Positions 1-63,000 of a stretch of DNA of 64,000 nucleotides are shown here, piece by piece. Origin of the DNA: Carcharhinus amblyrhynchos (Eukaryota); NCBI GenBank assembly GCA_965287045.1, contig OZ336888.1:15872001-15936000 (forward strand), in the 5' to 3' direction. A program made the position numbers. Positions within the stretch are counted from its first letter, which is position 1. Each line of letters begins with the position of its first letter.

Positions 1-3000
1 CTGATATTCATGTTGAACAATTTGTAATTGAATACTCTGCAGCATTTTTTTTGTTAGCTTGGAGCAGCACCAACTAGGATGATGATAAATCCCATTGTTT
101 CTGAAACTAGGAGTAATGATGGGTGTATTCGTTCACATTGTCACAATAATGTTTCAGTACCTTCAATAATTAGCTTTCACAAGCGAATAACATTTGAAAC
201 TTGTGAAATTTAACATTGTGTACTGAGAGCAGGTCAATGATTTTGTTGTTCCTTCAGGCAACATGGCTGAGGAATTGTTCTGAAGGGAAAGCTCAGAATT
301 TGAGTGAGGGAATTATTGCTGATCTGCGAGATAGTTTATGGGTCATCTTTGATCCTTACTGAGGTGCATGGAATTCCTGGTTAAGAATTTAAGAACATAA
401 GAACATAAGAAATAGGAGCAGGAGTAGGCCATCTAGCCCCTCGAGCCTGCCCCGCCATTCAAAAAGATCATGGCTGATCTGTCGTGGCTCAGTTCCACAT
501 TCCAGCCCTCTCCCCATAACCCTTAATCCTCTCTCTTATCAAAAACCCATCAACCCGCGTCTTAAAAATATTTAGCGAGGCAGCCTCCACCACTTCAACG
601 GGCAGAGAATTCCAGAGATTCACCACCCTTTGAGTGAAGAAGTCCCTCCTCAACTCCGTTCTAAACTGCCCCCCCTTTATCTTGAGGCTGTGCCCTCTAG
701 TCCTACTGTCCTTTCTGAGCAGGAAGAGCCTCTCCACCTCTATCCTATCCATCCCATTCATAAGTTCAGTGGGAGTTTAAGATAATGATGCTTATAATTA
801 AACATTTCCTTGGAAATGAATTGCAGTAGTGGTGAATAAATACTGTTCAAATTTCTGTGCTGTTTAGGGCCGACAAGAACTGTAGGAACTGGAGGACCAA
901 TCACTTCAGAGACCACTGTTGGTGGTGAGTTTTGCTTTCATCATACCTGCCACGTTAAATTAATTTGTGTGCTTTGTGGACTAATGGTGTTTCATGTTAT
1001 CTCTGCTCCCTAGGGCCAATGGCAATGACTGTGACAGGTACACTTCCTGTTTCTGAGAGCAGAATTACTGGTGAGCAGAACTTCTTTCATGTTAGAAGCT
1101 GTTGTTAGTATCATGCAATTTGTGATTTTTAACGCTACGATATGTCTACCGTTACGTTGGACCTGCACCAAGCAGCAGGGCAGTATCTGAGATAGTTTCC
1201 GAAACTGTGATTAACAATGATTGAATATATTCTCAGTGCCATACGATGTTTGTGCTGTCAAAGTGTCCCAGGCAAGGGACATGTTGTTGGTGCGTCATTG
1301 CAGGACACTGTATTTTCAGTCCGTTCAGATTGAAAGGTTTGAATGTGTACCAGTTGCGATGTTCCATATTGCTTTTGGTAAGCATCTTCTTTTTCAAATG
1401 TTGTTGTTTTTGCTTTGTCCTGATGGAAAAATGGTCAACAGATAGGAATGAATGATTGCTTTATTTCAGTTTTCGTACACATTTGCTTCTCAATGCAGAA
1501 ACTGTAAAGACATGCATATTGGTGTTTCACTTTCCTCACTGCTAATTGAGGCATCTTCATGATGATACTGACAGAGCTTTTCACTGAATGGAAGTTGGAA
1601 TATTAAGTGCTAACTGATAGAGTAGATCTCTTGCATTATCAATTGTAACATTCAGAAGAGGACAGTTTTATTGAATATGATAATTAATCATAATACAAGT
1701 TGTGTTACGTGTCCCTGAAGTCAGCTTGAGACTGAATGGCGGCATTTGTGAATTTAAAAAGACATTAATAAGGCAGATTGTCCAAACTTTAATGAGCACT
1801 GGTAGATCCTGGTATTGACATTCTGCATTGCTCTTTTGGAAGTGTAAATTGAAATTTAAAATTTGATATATTTACATTTGCATTTTGAAGAGCTAGGATT
1901 TTGGTGCTATTGATGTTAGATCGCTAAATCCATTTATTCGCATGACTCATGATAGGTAAGGCAACAGGAGATTCGAGATGTGCAGTAATACGTGGTTTGT
2001 CTATAACCGAAAGGCCGAACGGAAAGTATCTCATTTGTAGACTTGCAGAATGACAGAGTCTTTTATTTTGGTTTGGCAGTATGGTAGACCTTGCCAGTGC
2101 AATTTATATGCAGACAGACTGTCATAATTATTCCTTCCAACAGAATAAATTCAAAGCAGTAAATTTCAATACCATAACGAATTCCTGATTGGAAATGCCA
2201 CTTGTTCAGTGGGAGTTTTGAAAGAAACACTTTATTCTTTTGAAAAGAAATGATTTAGTCACCGTTGATATATCACTTTTATTGGCAAATAACATCCAAA
2301 TAATTTTGAGAAAATTTAGTGCCGCATTTACTGACTCTCTGTTAAATTTTTTGTAATTTCCTGAAAAGTAACTGGTTTTTGCGGGCAACTTGGTCGAGGA
2401 CCTGTTGTGCATGGCAAGCGCCGCATTTGTGGGTGGGAATGATCAATTGTAGTTTGCGTTCCAATATTTTCCTTTTCTCTTCCAATTTGGAAACATTTGC
2501 CACTTGAGAGTTTGACTGACATAATGATGCTAAGGGGAATAAAAAAATCTTGGGAAACAATTGCAGCAGTAATGAATAAATATTCTATGCAATGTCCACT
2601 TTTCTTTAGGGCCGACACCATTCATTGGAACTGGAAGACCTACAACTTCAGAGACTACTGTCAGTGGTGAGTATTGTTTTTTGCATCCTCGTCACCTGCA
2701 ATTAATTTATTTGATTGGCATTTTAATATTGTTTAAAATTTTCGCTACTACATAGGGCTAACAGCAATGACTCCATCAGGTGTACCAATTGTCCCTGAGA
2801 CAGCAATTACTGGTGAGTAGATCTCCTTACACATTATAACCTAATATTAAGATTGAGCGATTTGTAATTTAATACCATGGAGCATTTTTTCTGTTACCTT
2901 GGATGGTAGTAACTCCCATTGTTTCTGAAATGAAGAGTAATGATGGGTGTATTCATTCACATTGTCAGAATAGTATTTCAGAAACTATAATAATTAGCTT

Positions 3001-60000: not shown

Positions 60001-63000
60001 TGTCAGTCGAGTTGTTCCATATTGTCTTTGTTAAGCATCTTCTTGGTTGAATGTCCTTATTTTTGCTTTGTGCTGAATGTGAAATGGTCAACAGACAGGA
60101 ATTAGTGATTGCTTTATTGCAGTTTTTGTACACATTTGCTTGTCAGTGCACAAACTGTAAATACATGCATGTTGGTGTTTCACTTGCCTCGGTGCTAATT
60201 GATACATATTCATGTTATCACCGAAGGAGCTTTTCCGTGAATGGAAATTGGAATAGTAAATGCTACCTGATAGAGTAGATGCCTTGCATTATCAATTATA
60301 ATGTTTTATAATCAATTATAATCAATTATAATGGTGCAGCAGGTGATCAAGAAGGCGAATGGGATGCTGGCCTTTATAGCGAGGGGGATAGAATATAAAA
60401 GCAGGGAGGTCTTGCTGCGACTGTACAGGGCAGTGGTAAGGCCGCAGCTGGAGTACTGTGTGCCGTTTTGGTTGCCGCACTAGCGCAAGGATATTTTGGC
60501 CTTGGAGGGAGTGCAGAGGAGGTTCACTAGGCTGATACCGGAGATGAGGGGGTTGGACTATGAAGAGAGGCTGAATAGACTGGGTCTGTACTCGTTGGAG
60601 TTTAGAAGGATGAGGGGGGATCTTATAGAGACGTATAAGATAATGAAGGGGATGGATAGGGTAGAGGTAGAGAGATTCTTCCTGCTCAGAAAGGACAGCA
60701 GGACTAGAGGGCACAGCCTCAAGATAAGGGAGGGCAGTTTAGAACAGAGTTGAGGAGGAACTTCTTCACTCAAAGGGTGGTGAATCTCTGGAATTCTCTG
60801 CCCATTGAAGTGGTGGAGACTACCTCGCTAACAATATTTAAGACACGGGTAGGTAGATTTTTGGTAGGCAAGGGAATTAAGGGTTATGGGGAGAAAGCGG
60901 GAAAGTGGAACTGAGCCACTACAGATCAGCCATGATCTTATTGAATGGCGGGACAGGCTCGAAGGGCTAGATGGCCTACTCCTGCTCCTATTTCTTATGT
61001 TCTCATGTTCTTACGTTCTTACGAAAGTGGGCAGTGTTATTGAACGTGATTATTGATCATAATGTAGGTTGTGCCCGTGATATCCATGAATGGCAGCATT
61101 TATGAATTTAAAAAGATAGTAAGGCAGACTGTCCAAACGTTAATGAGCACTGGAAGATCCTGGTTTTGACATTCTGCATTGCTGTTTTGGAAGCACGTAT
61201 TGTAATTTAAAATTTAACATATTTTCATTTGCATTTTGCAGAGCTAGGATTTTGGTGCTATTGATTTTAGATCACTAAATGCATTTATTCACGTGAATGA
61301 TGATTGGTAAGGAATCTGGAGATTTGAGATGTACAATAATGCGTGGTTTGTCTGTGACTGAAAAGCCTACTGGAAAGCTCCAGATTTGTGGCCTTGCAGA
61401 ACGACAGAACCTTTTATTTTGATTTGGCAGTATGATAGACCTTGCTGGTGAAATTTATGTGCAGATGGACAGACATGATTATTCCTTCCAACAAAATAAA
61501 TTCAAAGCAGTAAATTTCAATATCATAATGAGTTCCTCATCAGAAATGCCGCTTTTTCAGTGGGATTTTTGAAAGACAAACTTTATTCTTTGGAAAACAA
61601 ATGATTTAGTTAGCTTTAAAATTTCACTTTTACTGGCAAATAACATCCAAATCATTTTGAGAGAATTTAATGCTACATTTGTTGACTTGATGTTGAATTT
61701 TTTTGTAATTGCCTGAAAAGTAGCTGGTTTTTGAAAGCAACTTGGTAAAGCAACTGTTCTGAATGGTAGGTGCTGCATTTGTGGAAGGGAATGTTTAATT
61801 TTATAGTTTGCATTTGGATATTTTCCTTTTCCCTTCGCAATGTGGAACCATTTGCCACTTGAGGCTTTGACTGACATCGTGATGCTAAGATGAACAAAAA
61901 ATTACGGGAAACAATTGCAGCAGTAATGAATAAATATTCTGTACAAATTCTGCTTTTCCTTAGGGCCGACACCATTCACAGGAACTAGAAGACCTACAAC
62001 TTCAGAGACTACTGTCAGCGGTGAGTATTGTTTTTGGCACTCTCGTGTCCTGAAATTAATTTATTTGATGGGGCGATTAATATTGTTTCAAATTTGCCCC
62101 ACGACTTAGGGCCAACGGCAATGACTCCATCAGGTGTACCAACTGTTCCTGAGACAGCAATTACTGGTGAGTAGATCTCCTTACACATTATAGCCTGATA
62201 TTAATTTCAAGCTATTTGTAATTTAACACTCTGCAGCATTTTTTTCCTGTTACCTTAAACCAGCATGAACTGGAATGATAGTAAATCCCATTGTTTCTGA
62301 AACGAAGAGTAATGATGTATGTATTCATTCACATTGTCACAATAGTATTTCAAAACCTCGAATAATTAGTTTTCAAAAGCAAACAACATTTGAAACTTAT
62401 GAAATTTAATGTTGCGTTTGCTGAGAGCTGGACAATTATATTGTTATTCCTTTAGTCAACATGCCTGAGGAATTATTCTGGAGGGAAACCTCAGAATTTG
62501 AGTGAGAGAATTATTACTGATCTGCGAGATTGTTTATGGGTCATGTTTGATCCGTACTGAGGTGTAAGCAATACCTGGTTAAGAATTTGACTAAGATAAT
62601 GATACTTATAGTTAAACATTTCCTTGGAAATGAATTGCAGTCGTGGTGAATAAATACTCTGTCCAAATGTCTGTGCTGTTTAGGGCCATCAAGAACTGCA
62701 GGAACTGGAGGACCAACCACTTCAGAGACCACCGTCAGTGGTGAGTTTCAGTTTATCGTACTCACCACATGAAATTAATTCTTGTGCTTCCTGGACGAAT
62801 GTTATTTCATATTATTTGTGCTCCTAGGCCCAGTGGCAATGACTGTGACAGGTACACTTCCTGTTTCTGAGAGCAGAATTACTGGTGAGCAGAGCTTCTT
62901 TCACATTAAAAGTTGCTATTGGTTTTGTGCTGTTTGCGGTTTTTAGCTCAACCGTACATCTACAGTTACGTTGGACCTACACGCGGGAGCAGGGCAGTCA

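What the first reader, a model, noticed from the sequence alone, without database searches (positions are those of the whole stretch)
868..62884. All cassettes are symmetric phase 1-1: a plug-and-play array able to give combinatorial length isoforms
Seen: every cassette length is a multiple of 3 (57, 48 or 33 nt) with the same phase, so any exon can join any downstream exon in frame. Established: symmetric repeat-exon arrays such as the titin PEVK region and the Xenopus integumentary mucin cassettes are alternatively spliced to tune polymer length. Inference: this locus can vary its length at both RNA level (skipping) and DNA level (unequal crossover) without frameshifting.
Basis: partly seen in the sequence, partly recalled or inferred. 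Interest (0 to 1): 0.65.

Follow-up and report, generated by a model that had tools for sequence, protein, structure and literature searches.

The report
Mucin-like array of 92 in-frame mini-exons
The window sits inside one vertebrate gene whose threonine- and proline-rich, mucin-like middle part is written as 92 tiny look-alike exons that all keep the same reading frame, a known kind of gene design whose use for making different protein lengths is still unproven here.

Summary
A profile search finds 92 cassettes, all on the + strand, from 868 to 62884. Ninety are 57 nt, one is 48 nt and one is 33 nt. All 92 are open in the phase-1 frame, and the split codon is always Gly, or Arg in two cases.

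That frame is under selection. Synonymous variants are in excess (53 of 119, p = 1.7e-4) and none of the 119 makes a stop. The only exon indels are 9 and 24 nt, whereas the seven indels in the short introns are 1-2 nt.

The encoded units are 30% Thr, 14% Pro and 10% Ser, which fits a mucin-type PTS domain.

Not every cassette can be spliced: 7 of 92 lack a canonical AG or GT, and the 48-nt cassette is one of them.

Length change at DNA level is shown. There are in-register tandem duplications of 8,931 bp (98.7% identity) and 7,861 bp (99.5%), and five clean losses of a C-D pair.

Skipping at RNA level is possible by arithmetic but untested.

The design is already in print for chicken Muc13 (one repeat per exon) and for tropoelastin (all introns phase 1:1). 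I file this as a new member of a known kind, of moderate interest.

The parts
868..1070 (+). A-B pair: cassette A 868-924, 89-nt intron, cassette B 1014-1070; both 57 nt, AG..GT
2610..2812 (+). C-D pair: C 2610-2666, D 2756-2812; both 57 nt, AG..GT
3303..3504 (+). A-B pair: A 3303-3359, B 3448-3504; 57 nt each
3967..4169 (+). C-D pair: C 3967-4023, D 4113-4169; 57 nt each
4672..4874 (+). A-B pair: A 4672-4728 (GITITAG variant), B 4818-4874
6972..7174 (+). A-B pair: A 6972-7028, B 7118-7174. B has CG instead of the AG acceptor; its 98.7% twin at 16050 keeps AG
8701..8903 (+). C-D pair: C 8701-8757, D 8847-8903
9799..10001 (+). A-B pair: A 9799-9855, B 9945-10001 (young copy of 868-1070)
11541..11743 (+). 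C-D pair: C 11541-11597, D 11687-11743
12234..12435 (+). A-B pair: A 12234-12290, B 12379-12435
12898..13100 (+). C-D pair: C 12898-12954, D 13044-13100
13603..13805 (+). A-B pair: A 13603-13659 (GITITAG variant), B 13749-13805
15903..16106 (+). A-B pair: A 15903-15959, B 16050-16106. It has the only 90-nt short intron, which is open and in frame (read-through ORF 15869-16162)
17632..17834 (+). C-D pair: C 17632-17688, D 17778-17834
18346..18548 (+). A-B pair: A 18346-18402, B 18492-18548
20062..20264 (+). C-D pair: C 20062-20118, D 20208-20264
20778..20980 (+). A-B pair: A 20778-20834, B 20924-20980
21532..21710 (+). A-B pair: A 21532-21564 is the 33-nt variant (24-nt in-frame deletion, AG..GT intact). 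B 21654-21710 is the unique GPKAM..PEGRIA copy, with an AAG acceptor
24775..24977 (+). C-D pair: C 24775-24831 (weak donor GTCTGT), D 24921-24977
25466..25668 (+). A-B pair: A 25466-25522, B 25612-25668
27831..28033 (+). C-D pair: C 27831-27887, D 27977-28033 (GG instead of the AG acceptor)
28541..28734 (+). A-B pair: A 28541-28588 is the 48-nt variant (9-nt in-frame deletion) and has CG instead of the AG acceptor. B 28678-28734
30905..31107 (+). A-B pair: A 30905-30961 (AAG acceptor), B 31051-31107
32618..32820 (+). C-D pair: C 32618-32674, D 32764-32820
33329..33531 (+). A-B pair: A 33329-33385, B 33475-33531
35706..35907 (+). C-D pair: C 35706-35762, D 35851-35907 (TT instead of the GT donor)
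36419..36621 (+). A-B pair: A 36419-36475, B 36565-36621
38139..38341 (+). C-D pair: C 38139-38195, D 38285-38341
38857..39059 (+). A-B pair: A 38857-38913, B 39003-39059
41170..41372 (+). A-B pair: A 41170-41226, B 41316-41372 (AAG acceptor)
42923..43125 (+). C-D pair: C 42923-42979 (donor GTGGGT), D 43069-43125 (AT instead of the GT donor)
44519..44720 (+). A-B pair: A 44519-44575, B 44664-44720
46078..46280 (+). C-D pair: C 46078-46134, D 46224-46280 (TSPGVPAFPEMAIT variant, donor GTGGGT)
46795..46996 (+). A-B pair: A 46795-46851, B 46940-46996
48521..48723 (+). C-D pair: C 48521-48577, D 48667-48723 (same variant, donor GTGGGT)
49238..49440 (+). A-B pair: A 49238-49294 ends in A, so the seam codon is AGG (Arg). 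B 49384-49440
50951..51153 (+). C-D pair: C 50951-51007 (CG instead of the AG acceptor), D 51097-51153 (donor GTAAGT)
51661..51862 (+). A-B pair: A 51661-51717, B 51806-51862
54103..54305 (+). C-D pair: C 54103-54159, D 54249-54305
54823..55023 (+). A-B pair: A 54823-54879, B 54967-55023 (87-nt intron)
56382..56584 (+). C-D pair: C 56382-56438, D 56528-56584 (donor GTGGGT)
57099..57301 (+). A-B pair: A 57099-57155 ends in A (Arg seam), B 57245-57301
58812..59014 (+). C-D pair: C 58812-58868 (CG instead of the AG acceptor), D 58958-59014
59522..59723 (+). A-B pair: A 59522-59578, B 59667-59723 (donor GTGGGC)
61964..62166 (+). C-D pair: C 61964-62020, D 62110-62166
62684..62884 (+). A-B pair: A 62684-62740, B 62828-62884; last cassette in the window
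1..18252 (+). Young tandem duplication with a period of 8,931 bp. 1-9321 matches 8932-18252 at 98.66% (105 mismatches, 5 gaps). Each copy carries 14 cassettes. It runs off the left edge of the window
48209..64000 (+). Youngest tandem duplication with a period of 7,861 bp, equal to three ABCD units. 48209-56140 matches 56070-64000 at 99.48%. Each copy carries 12 cassettes. It runs off the right edge of the window
44253..60306 (+). Older duplication layer: 44253-50018 matches 54557-60306 at 90.35%
20981..21531 (+). Chimeric B-to-A intron. Its nt 1-172 match the start of a B-to-C intron and nt 173-551 match nt 98-490 of a D-to-A intron. This is the scar of the loss of one C-D pair
4875..6971 (+). 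Chimeric B-to-A intron (B-to-C start, unmatched insert, D-to-A end); its twin is at 13806-15902
39060..41169 (+). Chimeric B-to-A intron (B-to-C parts, then D-to-A nt 173-490)
28735..30904 (+). B-to-A intron. Its first 868 nt match a B-to-C intron and the rest is unmatched

Best explanation
The whole window lies inside the repetitive middle of one + strand gene of a vertebrate. I do not take the contig for human.

The middle region is written as at least 92 very short exons of four related kinds. They are arranged as A-B and C-D pairs, with a tight 87-90 nt intron inside each pair and introns of roughly 0.5 kb and 1.5 kb between pairs. Each exon encodes one 19-residue unit rich in Thr, Pro and Ser, with no Cys and none of Asp, Asn, Gln, His, Trp or Tyr. 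Together they make a mucin-type (PTS) stretch of up to about 1,700 residues in this window alone. I infer that it is heavily O-glycosylated and extended.

All introns sit after the first base of a Gly codon (phase 1). This is because every cassette descends from one ancestral two-exon unit: A is homologous to C, B to D, and the two short introns to each other.

The array grew, and sometimes shrank, by tandem duplication and deletion in register with the cassettes. Selection has removed frame-breaking changes.

Shown: the cassettes, their frame, purifying selection on that frame, the splice signals, and the duplication and deletion history.

Inferred: that the gene is expressed, that most cassettes are included, that the 7 cassettes without canonical splice dinucleotides are left out of the mRNA, and that the product is a glycosylated mucin-like polymer.

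Symmetry makes skipping harmless to the frame. Whether skipping is used is not known.
For: Cassettes. 92 loci were found, all on the + strand. 90 are 57 nt, one 48 nt and one 33 nt, and 92 of 92 are open in phase 1.

Selection on the frame.
- Of 119 distinct single-base variants read in phase 1, 53 are synonymous, 66 non-synonymous and 0 make a stop. The expected synonymous share is 0.287 and the observed share 0.445, binomial p = 1.7e-4. The other two frames show no excess (p = 0.067 and 0.8) and carry stops.
- Third positions vary most. In B the values for positions 1, 2 and 3 are 0.041, 0.036 and 0.135; in C they are 0.107, 0.084 and 0.227.
- Exon diversity is 0.07-0.14, against 0.17-0.18 in the short introns.
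- The second exon base varies (GG 73, GA 10, GC 7, GT 2) yet always gives Gly after a G.
- There are 9 indel events in 46 pair alignments. Seven fall in the short introns, are 1-2 nt long and are never a multiple of 3. Two fall in exons and are 9 and 24 nt. By my arithmetic the hypergeometric p is 1/36.

Splice signals. AG acceptors occur in 87 of 92 and GT donors in 90 of 92. Donors are GTGAGT in 56 and GTGAGC in 26. The pyrimidine share at -20..-3 is 0.71, against 0.51 window-wide. A branch-point-like YTNAY lies at -50..-13 in 23 of 23 and 14 of 14 distinct short introns.

Negative control. A splice-like 58-nt block inside the long intron keeps a GTAAG donor in only 9 of its 22 copies.

Homology between kinds. 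A seeds hit C loci and B seeds hit D loci.

History. Duplication layers are seen at 99.5%, 98.7%, 90.4% and 82-88% identity. Chimeric introns mark lost C-D pairs.

Composition. T 29.8%, P 14.3%, S 10.0%, G 9.7%.

Precedent. The chicken Muc13 PTS domain has one 20-residue repeat per exon (PMC1552070, passages).
Against: I have no transcript or protein evidence, so expression and exon usage are inferred.

No end of the gene is in the window. No signal peptide, VWD, SEA or membrane domain could be looked for, so 'mucin' rests on composition and repeat design alone.

Selection is weak in the A and D cassettes. Diversity at positions 1, 2 and 3 is 0.097, 0.098 and 0.139 for A, and 0.117, 0.071 and 0.115 for D. 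In a 6-unit alignment some intron windows are as conserved as the exons.

The copies are related, so the variant counts are not fully independent.

Single-exon searches found nothing: Pfam on four 20-residue exon translations and the atlas on exon A.

The two youngest duplications could be assembly errors.
Confidence: 0.75

Rival explanations
1. One reading: the array is used as a splicing toolkit. Regulated skipping of cassettes gives many length isoforms of the polymer within one animal and across tissues.
For: Every join of canonical cassettes stays in frame with a Gly seam.

Precedents in print:
- Titin PEVK stiffness is regulated by alternative splicing (PMC11040099, passages).
- The same idea was proposed for chicken Muc13 (PMC1552070).

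7 of 92 cassettes have lost a splice dinucleotide yet remain open. This suggests that leaving a cassette out is tolerated.
Against: No transcript data are available.

85 of 92 cassettes have canonical sites. 82 of 92 donors are GTGAGT or GTGAGC, and the pyrimidine tracts are good. This does not point to weak, regulated exons.

TGCATG is not enriched: 85 matches against 77 +/- 8.7 expected.

The 87-90 nt introns inside pairs suggest that pairs, not single cassettes, would be the unit of any skipping. That is my inference.

Symmetry is explained by descent alone.
Confidence: 0.2
2. The array is a decaying or non-coding tandem repeat: a dead gene segment whose exon-like pieces are relics.
For: 7 of 92 cassettes have broken splice dinucleotides and 6 more have weakened donors. 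Retroelement pieces and other inserts fill many introns. Constraint on A and D is weak.
Against: None of the 92 cassettes has a stop or a frameshift. Synonymous variants are in excess only in the phase-1 frame. Indels of 1-2 nt occur in the short introns but none in the exons. Splice and branch-point signals are kept, unlike the intronic decoy.
Confidence: 0.07
3. Part of the array is an assembly artefact. The 98.7% and 99.5% tandem copies would be two haplotypes, or a mis-resolved repeat, placed side by side, so the true cassette number is lower or differs.
For: The two copy pairs differ by only 1.3% and 0.5% and both run off a window edge. Long near-identical tandem repeats are a classic source of assembly error, which is general knowledge. 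PMC12554196 notes mis-assembly in repetitive tropoelastin regions.
Against: Older duplication layers at 90% and 82-88% identity show that the locus really does grow this way. The copies differ at a splice site: 7118 has CG where 16050 has AG. Even if true, this changes only the count, not the nature of the array.
Confidence: 0.15

Closest known systems
Chicken (and zebrafish) Muc13 PTS domain encoded by multiple exons (Lang, Hansson, Samuelsson 2006, PMC1552070; passages read)
   Same: It is a mucin-type Pro/Thr/Ser-rich repeat region in which each short exon encodes one repeat unit (20 residues there, 19 here). The authors already proposed that length could be varied by recombination and by alternative splicing.
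   Different: At least 12 repeats were reported there, across an assembly gap. Here there are 92 cassettes of four kinds in a two-level pair and quartet order, with several dated duplication layers. Orthology to Muc13 could not be tested because no SEA, EGF or membrane part, and no neighbouring gene, is in the window. The passages I read do not give exon phase for Muc13.
Tropoelastin gene (PMC12554196; passages read)
   Same: All introns are phase 1:1, which gives cassette-like exons whose removal never shifts the frame. A Gly codon is split at the seam here; that this is also so in elastin is recalled, not read. The product is a repetitive, disordered extracellular polymer.
   Different: Tropoelastin alternates hydrophobic and Lys-rich cross-linking exons. 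Here Lys is 0.3% and Thr 30%, so this is not an elastin. Alternative splicing is documented for tropoelastin and untested here.
Titin PEVK exon array (PMC11040099; passages read)
   Same: It is a long run of short repeat exons (exons 112-225) encoding a disordered segment whose length is set by alternative splicing.
   Different: Titin is an intracellular spring rich in Pro, Glu, Val and Lys. Here E is 5.3%, V 7.7% and K 0.3%. No sequence relation was tested or is expected.
[quoted passage not shown]
   Same: They are secreted Thr-rich repeat mucins of a non-mammalian vertebrate with size polydispersity. FIM-C.1 is said to be highly polymorphic owing to alternative splicing.
   Different: The FIMs are defined by trefoil or von Willebrand-type Cys-rich modules, and none is in this window. 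I did not see their gene structures or exon phases. Any similarity of the repeat motifs is recalled and untested.
Human-type mucin genes with one large VNTR exon (PMC13345508, abstract in the search listing only; PMC1552070)
   Same: They have a Pro/Thr/Ser-rich tandem-repeat domain whose length varies by unequal recombination.
   Different: There the repeats lie in a single large exon, so length can change only at DNA level. Here every unit is its own exon.

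Membership tests
Mucin-type PTS domain | Region rich in Pro, Thr and Ser | tested here: met
   S+T is 39.8%, P is 14.3% and the sum is 54.2% over the 1,645 internal codons of the 92 cassettes
Mucin-type PTS domain | Perfect or imperfect tandem repeats | tested here: met
   There are 92 units of 19 residues in four related kinds
Mucin (whole protein) | Signal peptide plus VWD, SEA or membrane domains outside the PTS region | not testable with these tools
   The window begins and ends inside the array. The protein and contig searches that could find the gene's ends are closed or hold only bacteria and archaea
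Mucin (whole protein) | Dense O-glycosylation | not testable with these tools
   This needs biochemistry; it is inferred from Thr/Ser content only
Multi-exon PTS array (chicken Muc13 type) | Each exon encodes one repeat unit | tested here: met
   There is one 19-residue unit per 57-nt cassette, bounded by AG..GT in 85 of 92
Multi-exon PTS array (chicken Muc13 type) | Orthology to Muc13 (SEA, EGF and membrane parts; HEG next door) | not testable with these tools
   No such part of the gene is in the window
Phase 1-1 cassette gene (tropoelastin type) | All introns in phase 1, all exons multiples of 3 | tested here: met
   All 92 lengths are multiples of 3. One frame is open in all 92 and is supported by the synonymous excess
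Phase 1-1 cassette gene (tropoelastin type) | Documented cassette-like alternative splicing | not testable with these tools
   No transcript data are available
Tropoelastin | Alternating hydrophobic and Lys-rich cross-linking domains | tested here: not met
   K is 0.3% and T is 29.8%
Titin PEVK | Composition dominated by Pro, Glu, Val and Lys | tested here: not met
   P 14.3%, E 5.3%, V 7.7% and K 0.3%
Collagen-type exon array | Gly at every third residue | tested here: not met
   G is 9.7% of internal codons and shows no triplet period in the cassette translations
Xenopus FIM mucins | Trefoil, von Willebrand-type or short-consensus-repeat Cys-rich modules | not testable with these tools
   There is no Cys at all in the cassettes, and the flanking parts of the gene lie outside the window

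The most novel reading that the evidence does not exclude
This would be one of the largest runs of same-phase repeat exons known for a mucin-like domain: at least 92 exons in 64 kb, open at both ends. On this reading the animal uses it to make a graded series of polymer lengths from one gene. A-B or C-D pairs are skipped as units, because their 87-90 nt inner introns are removed first. Ongoing unequal crossover and loss of single splice sites add heritable length variants. That would be a mucin whose length is tuned at both RNA and DNA level, an idea raised for chicken Muc13 in 2006. In what I read I saw no test of it for a mucin domain built one repeat per exon.
Probability: 0.15. Interest if true: 0.6.

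Novelty: new member of a known kind. Interest (0 to 1): 0.35.

Why it matters
Most described mucins carry their repeat domain in one giant exon, so their length can change only through DNA rearrangement. An array with one repeat per exon could in principle also be adjusted during splicing, within one animal.

This locus is a large and cleanly readable example. It has dated duplication layers, scars of pair loss and a few cassettes that have just lost a splice site. That makes it a good place to test, with long-read cDNA, the old proposal that mucin length can be set by exon skipping.

It is also a warning for gene prediction and assembly. Ninety-two near-identical 57-nt exons, and tandem copies that are 99% identical, are easy to mis-assemble and mis-annotate.

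As it stands it adds an example and not a new principle.

Tried and rejected
Rfam scan of the whole window: 0 matches at gathering score.

Pfam at E up to 1 on seven translations:
- The four single-exon 20-residue translations (867-926, 1013-1072, 2609-2668, 2755-2814) had no family.
- The ORFs 23053-23601 and 33695-34423 had no family.
- The retroelement-tail ORF had only two sub-threshold chance hits.

Protein atlas. Exon A alone gave no usable hit. For the retroelement-tail ORF 26091-26804(-), the nearest clusters are eukaryotic hypothetical proteins, mostly chordate where the phylum is known, at 0.95-0.96. The nearest cluster with a reverse-transcriptase family scores only 0.86, which is a lead only.

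A hidden extra exon in the long intron. The 58-nt AG..GT block at 1320-1377 has 22 copies. Only 9 keep a GTAAG donor, and its length is not a multiple of 3. I rejected it as an exon.

A splicing-regulator motif. TGCATG (motif recalled) occurs 85 times against 77 +/- 8.7 expected, so there is no enrichment.

A gene on the minus strand. No cassette hit falls on the minus strand. The long minus-strand ORFs are repeated intron sequence or retroelement tails, and I did not pursue them.

Literature. Searches listed no paper on a many-exon mucin array in a cartilaginous fish. They cover only the held library.

Not done:
- I built and searched no joined (spliced) protein model. Exons were searched one by one only.
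- I ran no structure prediction, complex prediction or solved-structure search. A 19-residue low-complexity unit would not give a meaningful answer.
- I did not scan genome contigs, which holds only bacteria and archaea.
Whether annotated relatives of this protein exist therefore stays unchecked.

Full report
WHAT IS THERE. The window has no N and about 39% G+C. An unbiased scan for YAG...GTRAG pairs 20-100 nt apart on the + strand peaks sharply at 57 nt, with 75 pairs. The next peaks, 39 pairs each at 39 and 33 nt, are probably internal AGs of the same units, which I did not check. I then searched with four seed cassettes plus 30-nt flanks. This gave 202 hits, all on the + strand, which collapse to 92 loci: 26 A, 26 B, 20 C and 20 D. 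Aligning each kind and reading off the seed's borders gave the table. Ninety cassettes are 57 nt, one is 33 nt (21532-21564) and one is 48 nt (28541-28588). The order is ABCD repeated, with five places where B is followed directly by A. Introns inside pairs are 87-90 nt (A to B) and 88-89 nt (C to D). D-to-A introns are mostly 488-517 nt, and B-to-C introns are mostly 1,510-1,550 nt.

FRAME. With the first two bases set aside (phase 1), all 92 cassettes are open. The other two frames have stops in 42 and 28 of the 63 distinct 57-nt sequences. The last base is G in 90 cassettes and A in 2. The first two bases are GG (73), GA (10), GC (7) or GT (2). Any join of two cassettes therefore makes a Gly codon, or Arg after the cassettes ending at 49294 and 57155. 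The variation at the second exon base is silent, which by itself fits this frame.

IS IT MORE THAN CHANCE? The 92 cassettes are copies of one unit, so equal length and phase are largely inherited and do not count as 92 observations. Three independent signals remain.
(1) Among 119 distinct single-base variants read in phase 1, 53 are synonymous, 66 are not and none makes a stop. The expected synonymous share is 0.287 and the observed share 0.445 (p = 1.7e-4). The other frames give p = 0.067 and 0.8. With 18 of 648 possible changes making stops, zero in 119 has a probability of about 0.035 by my arithmetic.
(2) After I dropped the two youngest copy blocks and the two short cassettes, exon diversity is 0.07-0.14, against 0.17-0.18 in the short introns. 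Third positions vary most in B (0.041, 0.036, 0.135 for positions 1, 2, 3) and in C (0.107, 0.084, 0.227). The effect is weak in A and absent in D (17 A-B and 14 C-D pairs used, out of 26 and 20).
(3) Of 9 indel events in all 46 pair alignments, the 7 in the short introns are 1-2 nt, while the 2 in exons are 9 and 24 nt. By my arithmetic the hypergeometric p is 1/36.
Against this, a sliding profile over only 6 canonical units shows some intron stretches as conserved as exons. The variant counts also share ancestry.

SPLICE SIGNALS. AG precedes 87 of 92 cassettes and GT follows 90 of 92; both hold for 85 of 92. Donors are GTGAGT (56), GTGAGC (26), GTGGGT (4), GTAAGT (2), and one each of GTGGGC, GTCTGT, TTGAGA and ATGAGT. 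The 18 bases before the acceptor are 71% pyrimidine, against 51% window-wide. Every distinct short intron (23 of 23 and 14 of 14) has a branch-point-like YTNAY at -50..-13. A splice-like 58-nt block inside the long intron serves as a control: only 9 of its 22 copies keep a GTAAG donor. Seven cassettes have lost a canonical dinucleotide. The acceptor is CG at 7118, 28541, 50951 and 58812, and GG at 27977. The donor is TT after 35907 and AT after 43125. The 48-nt cassette is one of the seven. The loss at 7118 is younger than the 8.9-kb duplication, because the twin at 16050 keeps AG. All seven are still open. I infer that they are left out of the mRNA, which the frame tolerates.

HISTORY OF THE ARRAY. 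A seeds hit C loci and B seeds hit D loci, and the two short introns have the same length. The four-exon unit therefore came from a two-exon unit. Self-comparison shows several layers:
- ABCD units of about 2.44 kb at 82-88% identity.
- 44253-50018 against 54557-60306 at 90.35%.
- 1-9321 against 8932-18252 at 98.66%, with a period of 8,931 bp and 14 cassettes per copy.
- 48209-56140 against 56070-64000 at 99.48%, with a period of 7,861 bp. This equals three units of 2,423 + 3,162 + 2,276 bp and carries 12 cassettes per copy.
Both young duplications are in register with the cassettes and run off a window edge. Position 1 corresponds to 29 nt after a D cassette, so the array continues beyond the window on both sides. 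The five B-to-A introns begin like a B-to-C intron. Four of them then switch to the end of a D-to-A intron. The clearest case is 20981-21531, which switches at nt 172/173. These are scars of the loss of a whole C-D pair. The other unusually long introns hold unmatched inserts, some of which are retroelement tails. Length change at DNA level without frameshift is thus seen directly. The caveat is that the two youngest copies could be assembly errors.

WHAT IT ENCODES. Over 1,645 internal codons the composition is T 29.8%, P 14.3%, S 10.0%, G 9.7%, V 7.7%, A 5.9%, I 5.4%, E 5.3%, M 4.2%, R 3.9%. There is no Cys, Asp, Asn, Gln, His, Trp or Tyr. This is the make-up of a mucin-type PTS domain. If all cassettes were included the window would give 1,737 residues, or 1,607 from the canonical cassettes alone. 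Pfam on four single-exon translations found nothing, and the atlas on exon A found nothing usable.

SOURCE ORGANISM. I do not take the contig for human, and I searched no collection for more of it. The one-repeat-per-exon design differs from what the papers I read describe for human mucins, which carry one large repeat exon (PMC1552070; PMC13345508, abstract in listing). The nearest clusters to the intronic retroelement tail are eukaryotic hypothetical proteins, mostly chordate where the phylum is known. My recollection that such tails are common in cartilaginous fish is untested.

THE INTERPRETATION. The claim has two halves. The DNA-level half is supported as above. The RNA-level half is arithmetic plus analogy. 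The analogies are real:
- Tropoelastin has all splice sites in phase 1:1 and extensive cassette-like splicing (PMC12554196, passages).
- Titin PEVK exons 112-225 are alternatively spliced (PMC11040099, passages).
- FIM-C.1 is called highly polymorphic owing to alternative splicing (PMC7177656, passage; the primary paper was not read).
- Symmetric exons that encode disordered regions often arise by internal tandem duplication and are favoured in alternative splicing (PMC3632108, passages).
But the sites here are mostly good, a common regulator motif is not enriched, and no transcripts can be consulted. If skipping occurs, the very short inner introns suggest to me that pairs (38 residues) and not single cassettes are the likely unit. 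That is inference.

COMPARISON AND NOVELTY. The closest described case is the chicken Muc13 PTS domain. It has at least 12 repeats of 20 residues, one per exon, with a zebrafish homologue built alike. Its authors had already proposed length control by alternative splicing (PMC1552070, passages). The present locus is a much larger example with a two-level repeat order and a readable duplication history. Membership in Muc13 or any other named mucin family cannot be tested from this window. It fails the composition tests for elastin, PEVK and collagen. My searches listed no paper describing such an array in a cartilaginous fish, but they cover only the held library. I did not request any supplements, and the tropoelastin paper's curation tables in particular were not seen.

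VERDICT. This is a new member of a known kind, of moderate interest.

Noticed in passing
1320-1377 and 21 further copies (e.g. 5124-5181, 10251-10308, 18792-18849): A splice-like 58-nt block sits inside the B-to-C introns, with a pyrimidine tract, CAG and GTAAGC in some copies. Only 9 of 22 copies keep the GTAAG donor, and 58 is not a multiple of 3. If it were ever included it would break the frame. I read it as a decoy, not an exon.
   Followed up: yes
382-776 (-), 9313-9707 (-), 25988-26804 (-), 43511-44249 (+), 52472-53160 (+), 60333-61021 (+): Fragments of one retroelement tail (the longest open stretch is 237 codons at 26091-26804, minus strand) sit in different introns in both orientations, 80-90% alike. 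Inverted copies in separate introns could pair in the pre-mRNA and affect splicing; I did not test this. There is no Pfam family. The nearest atlas clusters are eukaryotic hypothetical proteins, mostly chordate.
   Followed up: partly
15960-16049 (read-through ORF 15869-16162): This is the only 90-nt A-to-B intron; the others are 87-89 nt. It is a multiple of 3 and open, so retaining it would keep the frame.
   Followed up: no
7116-7117, 28539-28540, 50949-50950 (twin at 58810-58811): Three independent acceptor losses are the same change: AG has become CG at the same position before the cassette. The recurrence is unexplained.
   Followed up: no
3505-3966 and 12436-12897: Two B-to-C introns are only 462 nt. 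Compared with the usual 1.5-kb intron they lack about nt 65-1142, which is an internal deletion. The two are copies of each other within the 8.9-kb duplication.
   Followed up: partly
6371-6703 and 15302-15634; 30088-30495; 33695-34539; 39082-39620: G+C-richer inserts in the long introns have long open, Pro-rich or Gly-rich low-complexity frames on one or both strands. Of these only 33695-34423 went to Pfam, which found no family, and the Rfam scan of the whole window found nothing. They are probably unclassified repeats.
   Followed up: partly
46224-46280, 48667-48723, 56528-56584: The three D cassettes with the TSPGVPAFPEMAIT variant all carry the weakened donor GTGGGT. A divergent peptide and a weaker site travel together, which may mark a cassette on its way out.
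   Followed up: no
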